A stretch of 47,335 nt of DNA, taken from NCBI GenBank assembly GCA_001818675.1, contig MHJF01000023.1:1-47335 (forward strand). The letters are read 5' to 3'. Positions 5,910 to 26,354 of this stretch are shown in pieces. How positions within the stretch are numbered: position 1 is the first letter of the stretch; the number at the start of each line of letters is the position of its first letter. This DNA comes from Candidatus Harrisonbacteria bacterium RIFCSPHIGHO2_02_FULL_40_20. Its GTDB lineage: Bacteria > Patescibacteriota > Minisyncoccia > UBA6257 > WO2-44-18. The notes below the pieces were generated by a model. That model ran no database searches, had not been told where the DNA came from, and saw only the letters and a program-made list of their open reading frames with translations. A program made the position numbers and the translations under genes.

Positions 5910-6564
5910 GAAGCTCATTAAAGAGGGCAGATTGGCGCAGAGCTATCTTTTTTTCGGGCCGGATTCCGCAGGCCTTTTAGAATTCAGCCGAGGTTTGGCG
6001 GGGTTTTTAGAATATGGAAAGTGGGCGGAAGCAGAAAAGCCTTTTTTGGATACTTTATTTTTAAATCCTGAGGATTATCGGGACGTAAAACATTTTTTAT
6101 GGCAGAAACCAGTGCAATCTCCAAGAAAGACTATTATTATTCCTGCCGCTCAAAAGTTGAGCGCCCAGGCGCAAAATACTATTTTAAAAATTTCAGAAGA
6201 GCCACCGGCTAACGCGATGATTATTTTATTAGTGAATGATCCGGATTCTTTAATTCCGACTTTAGCTTCCAGATTGCAAAAGGTATATTTCAATAATCCT
6301 CAGCCCGCTGTCGCAGGCGTGCAAAAATCTTTAGTGGAGGAATTTTTGAAAGCCACTACTGTGCGGCGTAAAGAAATCATTAAAGAAACAGTGGAAGATG
6401 ATCAAGTTTTGGAAGGATTTGTAAGGGGCTTAATAAAAGATCTTAGCCGTGATAAGATAAAAAACTGGAAGGCATTGAAAGAGTTATCGCATCGCTGGTC
6501 GTTGATTAATCGGTATAACGTAAATAAGAAGCTGCAGTTAGAAGCAGCGTTGATATATTTATAA
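5872..6564 (+). CDS. holB: DNA polymerase III delta-prime-like clamp-loader subunit
   Basis: 230 aa with LAQSYLFFGP and ILKISEEPPANAMIILLVNDPDSLIPTLASR, which resemble delta-prime boxes. The Walker A is degenerate. The start is uncertain and overlaps the mreB end by 38 nt. Confidence 0.5.
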   Translation: MSTNELFLIKGFKKLIKEGRLAQSYLFFGPDSAGLLEFSRGLAGFLEYGKWAEAEKPFLDTLFLNPEDYRDVKHFLWQKPVQSPRKTIIIPAAQKLSAQAQNTILKISEEPPANAMIILLVNDPDSLIPTLASRLQKVYFNNPQPAVAGVQKSLVEEFLKATTVRRKEIIKETVEDDQVLEGFVRGLIKDLSRDKIKNWKALKELSHRWSLINRYNVNKKLQLEAALIYL

Positions 6565-6572
6565 AAATGGTT

Positions 6573-6702
6573 ATGGATCCCGTTAGAGGCAACCCATCTA
6601 TGATTTTTGAAAGATTTCTTGATTTTAGGTATAAAAGTCGATTGCCGTTAAAACGGCCGAGTTACGATTGTCTAAAGACAATCTGTCTCTAACGGGATGG
6701 AT
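6573..6702 (+). repeat. Element-1 copy 1: 130-nt cassette bounded by inverted repeats, ending in an ATG
   Basis: 5' ATGGATCCCGTTAGAGGCA pairs with 3' TGTCTCTAACGGGAT. Internal TTGAAA-N17-TATAAA at 6607-6635. Hairpins at 6644-6657 and 6666-6683. Confidence 0.8.
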
Positions 6703-6780
6703 AAAGCATTTAGTTTATTTTTATTAATAATTTTTGCCGGCATTTTGCTGTATTTTTTGCCGTTAGTTTGTAAGCCCTAA
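6697..6780 (+). CDS. possible 27-aa hydrophobic peptide (MDKAFSLFLLIIFAGILLYFLPLVCKP)
   Basis: Its ATG is the terminal ATGGAT of Element-1 copy 1, the same arrangement as the frr and pheS starts. One TM-like segment. The stop lies 4 nt before copy 2. Confidence 0.3.
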   Translation: MDKAFSLFLLIIFAGILLYFLPLVCKP

Positions 6781-6784
6781 GGAT

Positions 6785-6914
6785 ATGGATCCCGTTAGAG
6801 GCAACCCATCTATGATTTTTGAAAGATTTCTTGATTTTAGGTATAAAAGTCGATTGCCATTAAAATGGCCGAGTTACGATTGTCTAAAGACAATCTGTCT
6901 CTAACGGGATGGAT
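6785..6914 (+). repeat. Element-1 copy 2; its terminal ATGGAT is the frr start
   Basis: Identical to copy 1 except G>A at 6859 and C>T at 6866, which are the two partners of one hairpin base pair. Confidence 0.85.
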
Positions 6915-7457
6915 TTTGTAAAAGAGTTAGAACAAAAACTTAAAGCGATTGTTGATTCCTTTAAGCAGGAATTATTTGGTATACGCGCTAATCGTCCGAG
7001 TGCTAAGTTGGTGGAAGATATAAGAGTAGATTATACTGGGCAGTCATTGATGATTAAACAGTTGGGTTCTATTAGTATTGTTCCTCCTAAAGAAATTGAT
7101 ATCAATGTTTGGGACTCTAGCGCGGTGGCTTCGGTGGCTAAGGCGCTAGAGTCTTCTAAGCTTGGTCTTTCTGCGAACATTGACGGCAATCTTATTAGGA
7201 TTAATCTTCCTTCCTTGACTCAAGAACGGCGCGATGAGCTGGCAAAATTAGTAAAGTCTATTGCGGAACAGAATCGCATTAAAATTAGGGCTGGCCGCGA
7301 TGATGCCAATAAAAAGATTGAACAAATATTTAAAGAGAAAAAAATCAGCGAAGACCAAAAATTTAAAGATAGAAAGAAAATTCAGGAGGCGGTGGATAAG
7401 GTGAACAATGGAATAGAGGCCTTGTTAGCTGACAAGATTAAAGAAATAAATGAATGA
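6909..7457 (+). CDS. frr: ribosome recycling factor
   Basis: 182 aa with FGIRANRPSAKLVEDIRVDYTGQ and LPSLTQERRDELAKLVK. Full-length compared with known RRF proteins. Confidence 0.93.
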   Translation: MDFVKELEQKLKAIVDSFKQELFGIRANRPSAKLVEDIRVDYTGQSLMIKQLGSISIVPPKEIDINVWDSSAVASVAKALESSKLGLSANIDGNLIRINLPSLTQERRDELAKLVKSIAEQNRIKIRAGRDDANKKIEQIFKEKKISEDQKFKDRKKIQEAVDKVNNGIEALLADKIKEINE

Positions 7458-17301: not shown

Positions 17302-17310
17302 CTAAGATGT

Positions 17311-17340
17311 CCTCCGACGTTACGTCGGAGGGCTTTTTTA
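17311..17340 (+). terminator. intrinsic terminator after the small-protein operon
   Basis: CCTCCGACG-TTA-CGTCGGAGG followed by CTTTTTTATT. Confidence 0.8.
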
Positions 17341-17370
17341 TTGGTCAATAAATTGTTATATTTCTTATTA

Positions 17371-17498
17371 ATGGATCCCGTTAGAGGCAATTAAAATAAT
17401 GATGGCAAACAATACGATTCAATATATTAAAGCGTCGGTGGTTCTTAAAATGGCCGAGTTACGGTCGCCTTTGGCGACCTGCCTCTAACGGGATGGAT
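17371..17498 (+). repeat. Element-1 copy 3; its terminal ATGGAT is the pheS start
   Basis: Same termini (ATGGATCCCGTTAGAGGCA ... TGCCTCTAACGGGATGGAT) and same TTAAAATGGCCGAGTTACG block. The 7-bp hairpin at 17463-17479 has an unrelated sequence but the same position. Confidence 0.8.
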
Positions 17499-25767: not shown

Positions 25768-26193
25768 ATGGCAAAACCAATCAAAACAACCTTAAAGCTT
25801 CAGATTCCGGCGGGCGCCGCGAACCCGGCTCCTCCGATTGGGCCTGCTTTGGGCCAACACGGCGTGAATATTGCTGAATTTTGTAAGCAGTTTAATGAAG
25901 CCACTAAAACTATGACGGGCGATATTGTTCCTGCGGAAATTACGATTTATGAAGATCGCAGTTTTACTTTTAAATTAAAAACTCCGCCCGCTTCAGCTTT
26001 ATTAAAAAAGGCTGCTGGAATTGAAAAGGGATCAGGCAATCCAATTCTTACTAAAGTTGGCAAGGTTACTAAAGAAGATTTACGTAAAATTGCAGAGCGA
26101 AAGATGCCCGATTTAAATACCGACAATGTTGAGGCAGCGATGCGCATTATTGCTGGCACTGCCAAGAATATGGGAATAGAGGTGATAGAGTAG
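25768..26193 (+). CDS. rplK: 50S ribosomal protein L11
   Basis: 141 aa with [25 protein letters not shown]. Confidence 0.96.
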
Positions 26194-26354
26194 AGGATTT
26201 TGGTATTTTCGGAGATATGCTTTTCGGAACCAGAATAATTAGCTCCAGCGGGCTAATTTTCTTTTCCCTCGGCGATTTTTCGTTCGTTGAAAATTATAAC
26301 GAACGAGCCATGTAAAATCGCCTCCGGGACATTCCGAGCCAGCATACCATCCTC
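26193..26354 (-). ncRNA. Element-3 copy b: candidate structured RNA of unknown class
   Basis: Its reverse complement aligns with 45076-45223. Conserved unpaired blocks and covarying helices. A minus-strand TTAGCT-N16-TATTAT lies at 26394-26367. Confidence 0.45.

What the first reader, a model, noticed from the sequence alone, without database searches (positions are those of the whole stretch)
6573..6914. Two copies of a 130-nt inverted-repeat-bounded cassette whose only differences are one compensatory base pair
Copies at 6573-6702 and 6785-6914 are identical except for G>A at 6859 and C>T at 6866. These two changes convert a G-C pair of the hairpin GCCGTT-AA-AACGGC into A-T (GCCATT-AA-AATGGC). 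The flanking sequences are unrelated, so the cassette itself was duplicated rather than the locus. Each copy starts with ATGGATCCCGTTAGAGGCA and ends with TGTCTCTAACGGGATGGAT. The arms pair over about 15 bp, with one G-T position that would be a G-U wobble in RNA. The ATG of the 3' arm is the start codon of the downstream ORF (a 27-aa peptide, then frr). Inside is a near-consensus TTGAAA-N17-TATAAA (6607-6635). Three readings are possible. One is a long-range helix sequestering the start codon in a read-through transcript. Another is a mobile promoter-leader cassette (MITE-like). The third is an invertible promoter flanked by recombinase sites. No recombinase gene is in this window.
Basis: seen in the sequence. 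Interest (0 to 1): 0.75.

Follow-up and report, generated by a model that had tools for sequence, protein, structure and literature searches.

The report
Mobile hairpin cassette at start codons
The duplicated 130-nt cassette is a small mobile-type DNA repeat, common in ultra-small (CPR) bacteria, that sits exactly on gene start codons and rebuilds the ATG it displaces. In other genomes, relatives carry a tiny GIY-YIG nuclease gene between the same inverted ends.

Summary
The two copies differ only at 6647/6859 and 6654/6866, a G-C to A-T pair swap. A third, diverged copy sits at 17376-17493 on the pheS start codon.

It is not a locus-specific regulator. The same ends (TCCCGTTAGAG...CTCTAACGGGA) bound 111 distinct elements of 27-280 nt, mostly in Patescibacteria MAGs. 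79 of them have a perfect 4-nt direct repeat, usually TGAA, TGGA or TGAG. The element's last A plus the repeat forms an ATG that opens a long ORF in nearly all of the 80 oriented copies. The downstream genes are unrelated to each other (gyrA, infB, prfA, murC, frr, pheS and others).

The only coding cargo found between these ends is an 86-94-aa single-domain GIY-YIG nuclease, similar in size and gene layout to the Ssn family. None lies in this window, but a sister Harrisonbacteria contig carries one next to the same two subfamilies.

Strain contigs lack copy 1, so it is an indel polymorphism. The frame from the upstream ATG stays open through 47% of elements and stops 4 nt before, or overlapping, the gene's ATG. 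This suggests translational coupling.

The riboswitch and invertible-promoter readings are not supported, and the internal promoter is weak. I found no published description.

The parts
6578..6697 (+). Copy 1 of the element proper (T-CCCGTTAGAG ... CTCTAACGGG-A, 120 nt). It is flanked by TGGA at 6574-6577 and 6698-6701.
   Evidence: It is absent from the strain contigs L122, L123, L125, L156, L159, L161 and L162.
6790..6909 (+). Copy 2 of the element proper. It is flanked by TGGA at 6786-6789 and 6910-6913, and its last A is the A of the frr ATG.
   Evidence: It is present in every strain contig that reaches this far.
17376..17493 (+). Copy 3, a diverged 118-nt subfamily. It is flanked by TGGA at 17372-17375 and 17494-17497, and its last A is the A of the pheS ATG.
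   Evidence: The gene spacing matches the window in all 9 places shown.
6577..6591 (+). 5' arm of copy 1. It pairs with 6684-6698. The same arms are at 6789-6803/6896-6910 and 17375-17389/17480-17494.
   Evidence: 14-bp helix, 98.6% of cells paired in 31 elements
6644..6657 (+). Hairpin 1, GCCGTT-AA-AACGGC (copy 2: 6856-6869, GCCATT-AA-AATGGC). This is the site of the compensatory pair.
   Evidence: It is conserved only in the c1-type sublineage and is 52-65% paired across the 31-element alignment.
6666..6683 (+). Hairpin 2, GATTGTC-TAAA-GACAATC, ending 1 nt before the 3' arm (copy 2: 6878-6895; copy 3: 17463-17479, GGTCGCC-TTT-GGCGACC).
   Evidence: (a stem of at least 6 bp at this fixed offset in 39/69 elements, with 22 different stems)
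6573..6692 (+). Open frame from the 5' ATG through copy 1 (39 codons), stopping at the TAA inside the 3' arm, 4 nt before the next ATG (copy 2: 6785-6904).
6697..6780 (+). 27-aa hydrophobic ORF between the two copies. Its ATG is rebuilt by copy 1. In strains without copy 1 it starts ATGGAC directly after TATAAAA.
6909..7457 (+). frr (ribosome recycling factor). Its start codon lies in the 3' end of copy 2.
   Evidence: PF01765
17493..18494 (+). pheS. Its start codon lies in the 3' end of copy 3.
   Evidence: PF02912, PF01409
6607..6635 (+). It is weak and specific to this sublineage.

Best explanation
The cassette is a non-coding (non-autonomous) member of a large family of small inverted-repeat elements found mainly in Patescibacteria. 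An element is T-CCCGTTAGAG...CTCTAACGGG-A flanked by a 4-nt direct repeat of the target, mostly TGAA, TGGA or TGAG.

When the element lies on a start codon, the host's A-TG stays on the left. The element's terminal A plus the duplicated TG rebuilds an ATG on the right, so the gene keeps an intact reading frame (shown).

The only protein-coding cargo found between these ends is an 86-94-aa single-domain GIY-YIG nuclease. In most clusters its first and last codons are the arms, and it is read from the host's own ATG. It ends in a TGA that overlaps the rebuilt ATG (ATGA) (shown in other genomes). I infer that this nuclease, which resembles the ssDNA-hairpin-specific Ssn enzymes, drives or maintains the family, and that the 118-120-nt elements depend on it in trans.

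I also infer how hosts tolerate the element. Ribosomes start at the left ATG, read through the element and so melt the 14-bp helix. They stop at the TAA in the 3' arm (4 nt upstream of the gene's ATG) or at the overlapping TGA, and then restart on the gene's ATG.

In this window, three copies sit on the starts of a 27-aa ORF, frr and pheS. Copy 1 is an indel polymorphism within the population.
For: **Family and ends**
- There are 111 distinct paired elements. The terminal T/A is complementary in 108 of them. The 4-nt direct repeat is perfect in 79, against about 0.5% expected by chance.

**Start-codon position**
- 80 of 96 paired elements have ATG directly after one arm.
- That ATG opens a long ORF in nearly all of them.
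- The downstream proteins align to Pfam profiles from about residue 1-10 and are unrelated: PCRF/RF-1, gyrA, IF-2, LepA, MurG, Mur ligase, TGT and a class II tRNA synthetase.
- In the window, start codons make up only about 12% of tolerable TGRR sites, against 83% of elements observed there.

**Nuclease cargo**
- L098, L080, L056, L005, L034 and L137 carry a PF01541 ORF between the arms.
- Of the 120 best homologue clusters, 80 start M-x-PVR and 105 end LTG, both encoded by the arms.
- The residues I take to be catalytic (Y, Y, R, H, E, N) are conserved.
- No IS-sized element with these arms was found in about 130 loci.
- A sister Harrisonbacteria contig carries this gene together with c1-type and c3-type elements that are 82-88% identical to the window's, although the rest of the contig does not align.

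**Polymorphism**
- Seven contigs, from six different assemblies, lack copy 1.

**Coupling**
- The frame from the 5' ATG is open in 20 of 43 elements, against 2 and 0 in the other frames and 12% in shuffles (p = 2e-8).
- The stops fall at -7 or +1.
- There is no Shine-Dalgarno sequence upstream of the 5' ATG (1 of 57).

**Orientation**
- The 3' hairpin lies next to the gene-proximal arm in 38 elements and next to the distal arm in 2.
Against: - No nuclease gene lies in this 47-kb window, and its presence elsewhere in this genome is unknown.
- GIY-YIG enzymes are hydrolytic nucleases, not known transposases, so the link between the nuclease and mobility is associative only.
- The interior of the 118-nt elements shows no detectable homology to the nuclease ORF.
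- The one natural filled/empty pair is not clean. The indel is 130 nt bounded by ATGG...ATGG, with 6 extra nt (TGGTTA) and one SNP. It could be an insertion or a repeat-mediated deletion.
- The published Ssn repeat motif does not match the window.
- Translational coupling rests on reading-frame statistics only, and 53% of elements carry premature stops.
Confidence: 0.7

Rival explanations
1. A classical MITE that is mobilised in trans by an unlinked DDE-type transposase recognising the TCCCGTTAGAG ends. Under this reading, the GIY-YIG gene is merely one passenger that landed between the arms.
For: Terminal inverted repeats plus a short fixed-length target duplication (4 nt in 79/111) are what I would expect of DDE transposons. 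GIY-YIG nucleases are not known to perform strand transfer. The MITE interior is not homologous to the GIY ORF.
Against: No longer element with these ends was found in about 130 loci; every arm pair 330-4000 nt apart is simply two separate elements. The nuclease ORF fills the space between the arms exactly. In 75 of 120 homologue clusters, both termini are arm-encoded. The strong orientation bias (38:2) is not what symmetric ends alone would predict.
Confidence: 0.13
2. A cis-regulatory 5' leader RNA (riboswitch, thermosensor or protein-binding leader) whose long-range helix sequesters the start codon of translation-related genes such as frr and pheS.
For: The fold is stable (-45 to -51 kcal/mol, z = -5 to -6.4). 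The arms and hairpin 2 covary. The AUG lies in the helix. Copy 3 follows a terminator and a promoter-like extended -10 element, so the whole element would be transcribed.
Against: - There is no Rfam match.
- The downstream genes are functionally unrelated.
- Copy 1 is absent in sister strains.
- Elements carry 4-nt target repeats, tandem and nested copies, and versions from 27 to 280 nt.
- The same ends bound a nuclease ORF, and some elements sit at -35-like boxes rather than at an ATG.
- Both DNA strands fold equally well, and there is no G-T versus A-C strand bias.
Confidence: 0.06
3. A mobile promoter cassette, in which the internal TTGAAA-N17-TATAAA drives the downstream gene and makes it independent of upstream transcription.
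For: The motif is present in copies 1 and 2. It is partly kept in c1-type relatives as TTGAAA/CTGAAA ... TATAAA/CATAAA.
Against: The -10 hexamer lacks the final T, and the scan does not call it. It is absent from copy 3 and from other subfamilies. Those relatives are close, so the conservation is uninformative. Promoter-like extended -10 elements lie upstream of copies 1 and 3 instead.
Confidence: 0.08
4. An invertible promoter switch bounded by recombinase sites.
For: Only the inverted repeats and a promoter-like motif between them.
Against: More than 30 independent assemblies of the frr and pheS loci show one orientation. Orientation relative to the gene is fixed family-wide. No recombinase lies in the window. 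The arms are coding ends of a nuclease gene elsewhere.
Confidence: 0.02

Closest known systems
Ssn nucleases and their hairpin repeats (NTS/SRM), Chenal et al. 2025, PMC11893778
   Same: Both involve a single-domain GIY-YIG protein of about 94 aa. In both, the gene is bracketed on both sides by inverted copies of a repeat that is also dispersed in many copies through the genome. Both repeats form hairpins. That paper itself compares the repeat-gene-repeat layout to an IS and to REP/RAYT systems. The motif TCAT followed by a CCCG stem start appears in both: NTS has GTCAT-TCCCGCG, and the bottom strand here has TTCAT-CCCGTTAGAG.
   Different: The published SRM search motif finds nothing in the window. 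Here the two arms lie 27-280 nt apart and enclose cargo, rather than forming a compact 28-nt hairpin. In most clusters the arms encode the protein's first and last residues. The elements carry 4-nt direct repeats and sit on start codons. That paper's main text mentions neither Patescibacteria nor start codons. Membership of the CPR protein in cd10448 could not be tested; its nearest solved structures are UPF0213 proteins.
REPIN / RAYT systems (REP doublets with a REP-associated tyrosine transposase)
   Same: Both are short non-autonomous hairpin-forming repeat pairs that are dispersed in the genome. In both, a single small enzyme gene is flanked by the same repeats in inverted orientation.
   Different: The enzyme here is a GIY-YIG nuclease (PF01541), not a Y1 transposase. 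REPINs are described as extragenic and, as far as I know, have no fixed relation to start codons.
Neisseria Correia elements (CREE) and NIMEs/dRS3
   Same: These are elements of roughly 100-150 bp with terminal inverted repeats and short target duplications. They lie next to genes and are co-transcribed. Their paired ends can form a long RNA helix, and some copies carry promoters (from my own knowledge).
   Different: The end sequence is different. From my own knowledge, Correia elements duplicate TA, whereas this family has a 4-nt TGRR repeat. Correia elements have no known protein-coding partner and do not sit exactly on start codons.
IS200/IS605 family and its palindrome-associated miniature derivatives
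   Same: A strand- and orientation-specific lifestyle is plausible for both, given the 38:2 orientation bias here. Hairpins matter more than sequence: hairpin 2 has 22 different stems at one fixed offset. Both insert next to a short specific target.
   Different: From my own knowledge, that family makes no target duplication and uses a Y1 HUH transposase with subterminal, not terminal, hairpins. Here there are true terminal inverted repeats and a 4-nt direct repeat.
Free-standing and intron-borne GIY-YIG homing endonuclease genes
   Same: Both are selfish GIY-YIG genes inserted so that the host gene remains functional.
   Different: From my own knowledge, homing enzymes carry DNA-binding domains, target one long site and have no inverted ends or miniature derivatives. 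This family has a bare catalytic domain, many target genes and inverted ends.

Membership tests
MITE (miniature inverted-repeat transposable element) | Terminal inverted repeats | tested here: met
   A 14-bp terminal helix (RT-CCCGTTAGAG-RC / GY-CTCTAACGGG-AT). The terminal T/A is complementary in 108/111 elements.
MITE (miniature inverted-repeat transposable element) | Short direct repeat of the target at both ends | tested here: met
   The 4-nt repeat is perfect in 79/111 and matches 3 of 4 positions in 7 more, against about 0.5% expected by chance. The window copies all have TGGA.
MITE (miniature inverted-repeat transposable element) | Small, non-coding, multi-copy within a genome | tested here: met
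   There are 3 copies of 118-120 nt in the 47-kb window. Sister Harrisonbacteria contigs carry at least 8. The ORF through the element is not conserved at the amino-acid level.
MITE (miniature inverted-repeat transposable element) | Presence/absence polymorphism at a locus | tested here: met
   Copy 1 is absent from 7 contigs drawn from six assemblies. The direction (insertion or deletion) is unresolved, and the junction is not a clean 4-nt duplication.
MITE (miniature inverted-repeat transposable element) | An autonomous partner with the same ends that encodes a transposase | tested here: inconclusive
   The only coding partner is a GIY-YIG nuclease. No DDE-type element has these ends. Whether the nuclease mobilises anything is untested.
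Ssn / SRM system (PMC11893778) | Single-domain GIY-YIG protein of about 94 aa | tested here: met
   The proteins are 86-94 aa with PF01541 as the only domain and conserved putative active-site residues. This holds in related genomes; none is in the window.
Ssn / SRM system (PMC11893778) | Protein belongs to CDD family cd10448 | not testable with these tools
   No CDD search and no SsnA sequence were available. The nearest PDB chains are UPF0213 proteins (1zg2, E = 1.5e-10). A plasmid search returned only YazA-type genes.
Ssn / SRM system (PMC11893778) | Repeats match the SRM motif HGTCWYN(0-2)YYVSBRHN(0-5)WNVSBRGN(0-2)RNCYNB | tested here: not met
   There are 0 matches on either strand of the window or in copies 1 and 3. 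The regex does match the NTS consensus.
Ssn / SRM system (PMC11893778) | Nuclease gene flanked on both sides by the repeat | tested here: met
   Six loci have the arms at both gene ends. 75 of 120 clusters have both termini arm-encoded.
Ssn / SRM system (PMC11893778) | Site-specific cleavage of ssDNA only | not testable with these tools
   This needs biochemistry.
REPIN / RAYT | Associated Y1 (RAYT) transposase flanked by the repeats | tested here: not met
   The ORFs enclosed by the arms hit GIY-YIG PF01541 only.
Known structured RNA families (Rfam 15) | Covariance-model match at or near the gathering score | tested here: not met
   There is no hit in the window at gathering threshold. Only chance-level hits (E of at least 1) occur in 6400-7100.
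Invertible promoter switch | Both orientations present in a population, with a nearby recombinase | tested here: not met
   All assemblies show one orientation, and the window has no recombinase. Raw reads were not examined.

The most novel reading that the evidence does not exclude
The roughly 280-bp unit (inverted ends plus an 86-94-aa GIY-YIG nuclease) is an autonomous mobile element of a kind not yet described. It would be a DNA element whose only protein is a bare GIY-YIG domain. It borrows the host gene's start codon for its own translation and rebuilds that codon for the host from its terminal A plus a 4-nt target duplication. It has spawned 27-120-nt miniature derivatives, including the three in this window, across Patescibacteria and a few other phyla. 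That would make it among the smallest self-sufficient mobile elements known, and a natural start-codon-seeking parasite.
Probability: 0.3. Interest if true: 0.88.

Novelty: new variant of a known kind. Interest (0 to 1): 0.68.

Why it matters
**Annotation.** Gene callers will mis-place the starts of essential CPR genes, or fuse them to element-encoded peptides such as MDPVRG.... They also label the nuclease 'excinuclease ABC subunit C'.

**Biology of streamlined genomes.** CPR genomes are about 1 Mb and thought to be poor in mobile DNA. Yet this family sits on the start codons of genes such as gyrA, infB, prfA, pheS and frr. This implies a way of being harmless (a rebuilt ATG plus a probable translational restart) that could be tested directly.

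**Ssn enzymes.** The family links the recently described Ssn-type ssDNA nucleases to a transposon-like anatomy with inverted ends and target repeats. This bears on the open question, raised in the Ssn paper, of whether repeat-gene-repeat units are mobile.

**Population genomics.** The elements cause local structural polymorphism: three alleles exist between holB and frr in one aquifer population. They could therefore serve as strain markers.

Tried and rejected
- **Rfam, whole window and sensitive local scan:** nothing relevant. No tRNA or tmRNA either.
- **GIY-YIG gene in the window:** tblastn found none.
- **Deletion-derivative idea.** I tested whether the 118-nt elements are internal-deletion derivatives of the nuclease gene. 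nhmmer with the gene alignment against element interiors found no hit, so this is not supported beyond the arms.
- **Functional strand.** I tried to infer the functional strand from G-T versus A-C mismatches in the arms. There is no bias (7 versus 10 at the free positions). ssDNA folding is equally good on both strands.
- **Published SRM motif:** no match.
- **Phage carriage.** 28 viral contigs contain the 15-mer, but none has a paired element, so this is chance level.
- **IS-sized partner with the same ends:** none found.
- **Plasmid collection, to reach bona fide Ssn genes:** only YazA/UPF0213 hits.
- **Orthologues in the window of genes tagged in the sister organism:** none, so no cross-species filled/empty comparison was possible.
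- **Single-arm hits in non-CPR genomes** (Polynucleobacter, Flavobacterium, Haemophilus and others) are expected by chance. About 2,200 random matches of the 15-mer are expected in 596 Gb, so I ignored them.
- **Literature.** Searches with the arm sequence, and with CPR/MITE/GIY-YIG/start-codon terms, found no description of this family. This is limited to open-access text.
Full report
**1. Observation**

The two 130-nt copies (6573-6702 and 6785-6914) are real. They differ at exactly two positions, 6647G/6859A and 6654C/6866T. These two positions pair in the palindrome GCCGTT-AA-AACGGC / GCCATT-AA-AATGGC. Identity stops 1 nt to the left and 0 nt to the right, so only the cassette is shared.

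- Each copy has 15-nt inverted arms with one G-T position.
- Each 3' arm contains the ATG of the next ORF: the 27-aa ORF and frr.
- The arm 12-mer occurs six times in the window, not four. A third, diverged copy lies at 17372-17498, and its 3' ATG is the start of pheS.
- Copy 3 keeps the arms and the segment TTAAAAYGGCCGAGTTACG. It replaces the hairpin GATTGTC-TAAA-GACAATC with GGTCGCC-TTT-GGCGACC, which is three double changes.
- As RNA, each copy folds into a 15-bp outer helix closing a multi-branch loop (-45 to -51 kcal/mol, z = -5 to -6.4). As ssDNA, both strands fold equally well.

**2. It is a family, not a local feature**

Rfam gives nothing. About 2,200 chance matches are expected in that collection, so single hits in ordinary bacteria mean nothing. 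However, most of the listed loci are Patescibacteria MAGs: Saccharibacteria, Paceibacterota, and Yanofsky-, Kaiser-, Wolfe-, Nomura-, Sung- and Jorgensenbacteria, among others. Many carry the arm twice, in inverted orientation.

Allowing one mismatch in a 10-nt core, I collected 96 paired elements, and 111 distinct ones after adding metagenome loci. They range from 27 to about 280 nt, with a strong mode at 114-124 nt. A few lie on long contigs labelled Planctomycetaceae, Phycisphaerae or Gammaproteobacteria.

**3. Anatomy of the ends**

- The base before CCCG is T in 79 of 79 oriented copies.
- It is complementary to the base after CGGG in 108 of 111 elements.
- The four bases outside these termini form a perfect direct repeat in 79 of 111 elements, against about 0.5% expected by chance. 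The commonest repeats are TGAA, TGGA and TGAG, followed by TTGA, TAAA, TAAG, TTTA and CTAA.

The unit is therefore T-CCCGTTAGAG...CTCTAACGGG-A with a 4-nt target-type duplication. The element's last A plus the repeat's TG makes an ATG. In the window, all three copies have TGGA.

**4. Position on start codons**

- 80 of 96 elements have ATG directly after exactly one arm.
- That ATG opens a long ORF in nearly all of them. The exceptions are mostly followed by another element in tandem.
- Twenty downstream proteins were scanned against Pfam. Sixteen had hits, and these are unrelated, often essential genes whose profile matches begin near residue 1-10: PCRF/RF-1, GyrA, IF-2, LepA, MurG, a Mur ligase, TGT, a class II tRNA synthetase, a beta-CASP nuclease, sugar transferases and others. 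The window adds frr and pheS.
- In the window, gene starts of the form ATG+AA/GA/AG are only about 12% of the TGRR sites that lie outside coding sequence. In contrast, 83% of elements are on start codons. This is a rough comparison, because the window stands proxy for other genomes. It still suggests more than passive survival of harmless insertions.
- A minority class sits instead on TTGAC(A/C) boxes that are followed 16-18 nt later by a -10-like hexamer. There the duplication rebuilds a -35-like box.

**5. The coding relative**

In L098, L080, L056, L005, L034 and L137, the space between the same arms (272-275 nt between core ends) is filled by one ORF of 86-94 aa. It hits only PF01541, GIY-YIG. 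The arms are inside the ORF: ATG-AAT-CCC-GTT-AGA-G.. reads M-N-P-V-R-D/G, and CTG-TCT-CTA-ACG-GGA-TGA reads L-S-L-T-G-stop. That TGA overlaps the ATG of the next gene.

- A search of the protein collection found 3,734 clusters at E < 1e-5. Of the best 120, 80 begin M-x-PVR and 105 end LTG.
- The residues I take to be catalytic (Y, Y, R, H, E, N) are invariant or nearly so.
- The nearest solved structures are the small UPF0213 proteins.
- No arm pair 330-4000 nt apart encloses anything but two separate elements, so no IS-sized partner was seen.
- nhmmer finds no homology between the interiors of the 118-nt elements and this ORF. The small elements are therefore not simple deletion derivatives.

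**6. The same organism group**

The window belongs to a Candidatus Harrisonbacteria population from the Rifle aquifer. It has 40% G+C, positive GC skew throughout, and 40 of 45 genes on the + strand.

A metagenome scan with the conserved interior 18-mer found contigs of another Harrisonbacteria. These carry c1-type and c3-type elements that are 82-88% identical to the window's, on at least eight different gene starts. A nuclease gene lies between the same arms at L137 2911-3184. Outside the elements, those contigs show essentially no nucleotide similarity to the window. The elements are thus far better conserved than their surroundings.

**7. Polymorphism**

Contigs that encode the identical or near-identical frr fall into three alleles:

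- **Both copies, as in the window:** L121, L155 (the NCBI MAG), L158, L160, L163.
- **No copy 1:** holB is followed by TATAAAAATGGACAAAGC..., then the 27-aa ORF, copy 2 and frr. Contigs L122, L123, L125, L156, L159, L161 and L162, from six assemblies, show this allele together with linked SNPs.
- **A single element and no 27-aa ORF:** L118, L154, L157. This could be recombination between the two copies, or an assembly collapse.

The indel for copy 1 is exactly 130 nt and is bounded by ATGG...ATGG. Compared with a clean 4-nt duplication, there are six extra bases (TGGTTA) and one C/T difference. I cannot say whether it is an insertion from an unseen donor or a repeat-mediated deletion. Either way, the cassette is dispensable and recently dynamic. 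Copy 3 is present, with the same gene spacing, in all nine places shown.

**8. The compensatory pair**

The G-C state of hairpin 1 is shared with related elements in other genomes (L094, L136). This suggests the A-T state in copy 2 is derived. Across a 31-element subset of the family, this hairpin is only 52-65% paired, and it is broken or deleted in several c1-type relatives. Two symmetric transitions in a perfect palindrome can arise by selection for pairing. They can also arise by templated correction within a quasi-palindrome, and the data do not decide between these.

The strongly conserved features are different ones:

- **The outer helix:** 14 bp, 98.6% of cells paired, with covariation at the three inner pairs.
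- **Hairpin 2:** a stem of at least 6 bp ends exactly 1 nt before the 3' arm in 39 of 69 elements, with 22 different stem sequences. At shifted offsets of 2 nt or more, only 3-13 of 69 elements qualify. All 7 pairs show double changes in alignment A3. That alignment was pre-selected for this hairpin, so its 100% pairing is by construction.

**9. How it probably works**

*Shown.* The element rebuilds the start codon. It is oriented with the gene: hairpin 2 lies next to the gene-proximal arm in 38 elements and next to the distal arm in 2.

The reading frame set by the left ATG is open through the element in 20 of 43 cases. The other two frames are open in 2 and 0 cases, and shuffled interiors in 12% (p = 2e-8). 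Because of the fixed 3' arm, each frame has a defined end. One frame ends at the TAA 4 nt before the gene's ATG. The second ends at the TGA of ATGA. The third runs in frame into the gene, and the 63-nt elements use it as N-terminal extensions. Copies 1 and 2 are of the TAA type, with 39 codons.

There is no Shine-Dalgarno sequence upstream of the left ATG (1 of 57). Extended -10-like TGnTATATT motifs lie 9-13 nt upstream of the left ATG of copies 1 and 3.

*Inferred.* Transcripts start close to the left ATG. Ribosomes translate through the element, opening the helix that would otherwise bury the gene's AUG, and then terminate and restart at the rebuilt AUG. In the coding version, the same arrangement expresses the nuclease from the host's start signal.

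*Also inferred.* The nuclease acts on the hairpin formed by the ends, by analogy with Ssn enzymes. Those enzymes bind a hairpin repeat in ssDNA and cut beside it (PMC11893778). How copies are made is unknown.

**10. Comparison with what is known**

The closest described system is Ssn/NTS-SRM. It shares the protein size and single-domain architecture, the repeat-gene-repeat layout and dispersed hairpin repeats. That paper itself raises the IS and REP/RAYT analogy.

The differences are substantial:

- The published SRM motif does not match.
- The arms enclose cargo and, in most clusters, encode the protein's termini.
- There is a 4-nt duplication.
- The elements sit on start codons.
- That paper's main text mentions neither Patescibacteria nor start codons.

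I could not test membership in cd10448. REPIN/RAYT, Correia elements, NIMEs and IS200/IS605 miniatures are functional analogies only (see the membership table). Searches of open-access text with the arm sequence and with relevant terms found no description of this family.

**11. Verdict**

The MITE-like reading is supported and can be made much more specific. The regulatory-helix reading survives only as a likely side effect, the promoter is doubtful, and the invertible switch is rejected.

I rate it a new variant of a known kind: hairpin or MITE-type repeats tied to a small GIY-YIG nuclease. There is a real chance (about 0.3) that the coding version is a new type of autonomous element.

Noticed in passing
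window 26217-26335: The intergenic segment just downstream of rplK (25768-26193) is 89% identical over 121 nt to L139 12147-12267, from another Harrisonbacteria contig, although the surrounding DNA does not align. A sensitive Rfam scan finds nothing meaningful. It may be an unannotated leader or small RNA.
   Followed up: partly
L037 6732-6803; L065 3423-3491 and 6835-6902; L083 865-962; L100 3815-3932; L050 317-380: A second class of the same element family sits not on ATG but on TTGAC(A/C) boxes, which are followed 16-18 nt later by a -10-like hexamer. The direct repeat (TTGA) rebuilds the -35-like box downstream of the element.
   Followed up: partly
L012 4621-4790: A 62-nt element with CCCGTTAGAAG arms is nested inside a 118-nt-type element, exactly where the 3' hairpin normally sits (after TTACG and before CTGTCTC).
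   Followed up: no
window 6551-6559 and 17354-17362: Extended -10-like TGATATATT and TGTTATATT lie 13 and 9 nt upstream of the left ATG of copies 1 and 3. Copy 3 also follows a strong terminator at 17309-17333. Together with the lack of Shine-Dalgarno motifs upstream of 5' ATGs family-wide (1/57), this hints at leaderless or very short-leader mRNAs in these organisms.
   Followed up: partly
L118, L154, L157 (holB-frr interval): A third allele has a single element between holB and frr and no 27-aa ORF. It has the left flank of copy 1 and the A-T hairpin of copy 2. It is either a recombination deletion between the two copies or a recurrent assembly collapse of the repeat.
   Followed up: partly
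L015 6508-6553: A 46-nt member of the family, flanked by ATAAAT repeats, lies about 60 nt upstream of what looks like the 5' end of a 23S rRNA gene.
   Followed up: no
L039, L099 (Planctomycetaceae MAG), L095 (Phycisphaerae MAG), L056 (Gammaproteobacteria MAG, 360-kb contig): Paired elements, and in L056 a nuclease-bearing one, occur on long contigs that are not labelled Patescibacteria. The family may therefore cross phylum boundaries, unless those bins are contaminated.
   Followed up: no
P0029, P0052, P0127, P0189 (names): Public annotations name several of these 86-94-aa nucleases 'excinuclease ABC subunit C'. This looks like an over-annotation from the shared GIY-YIG domain.
   Followed up: no
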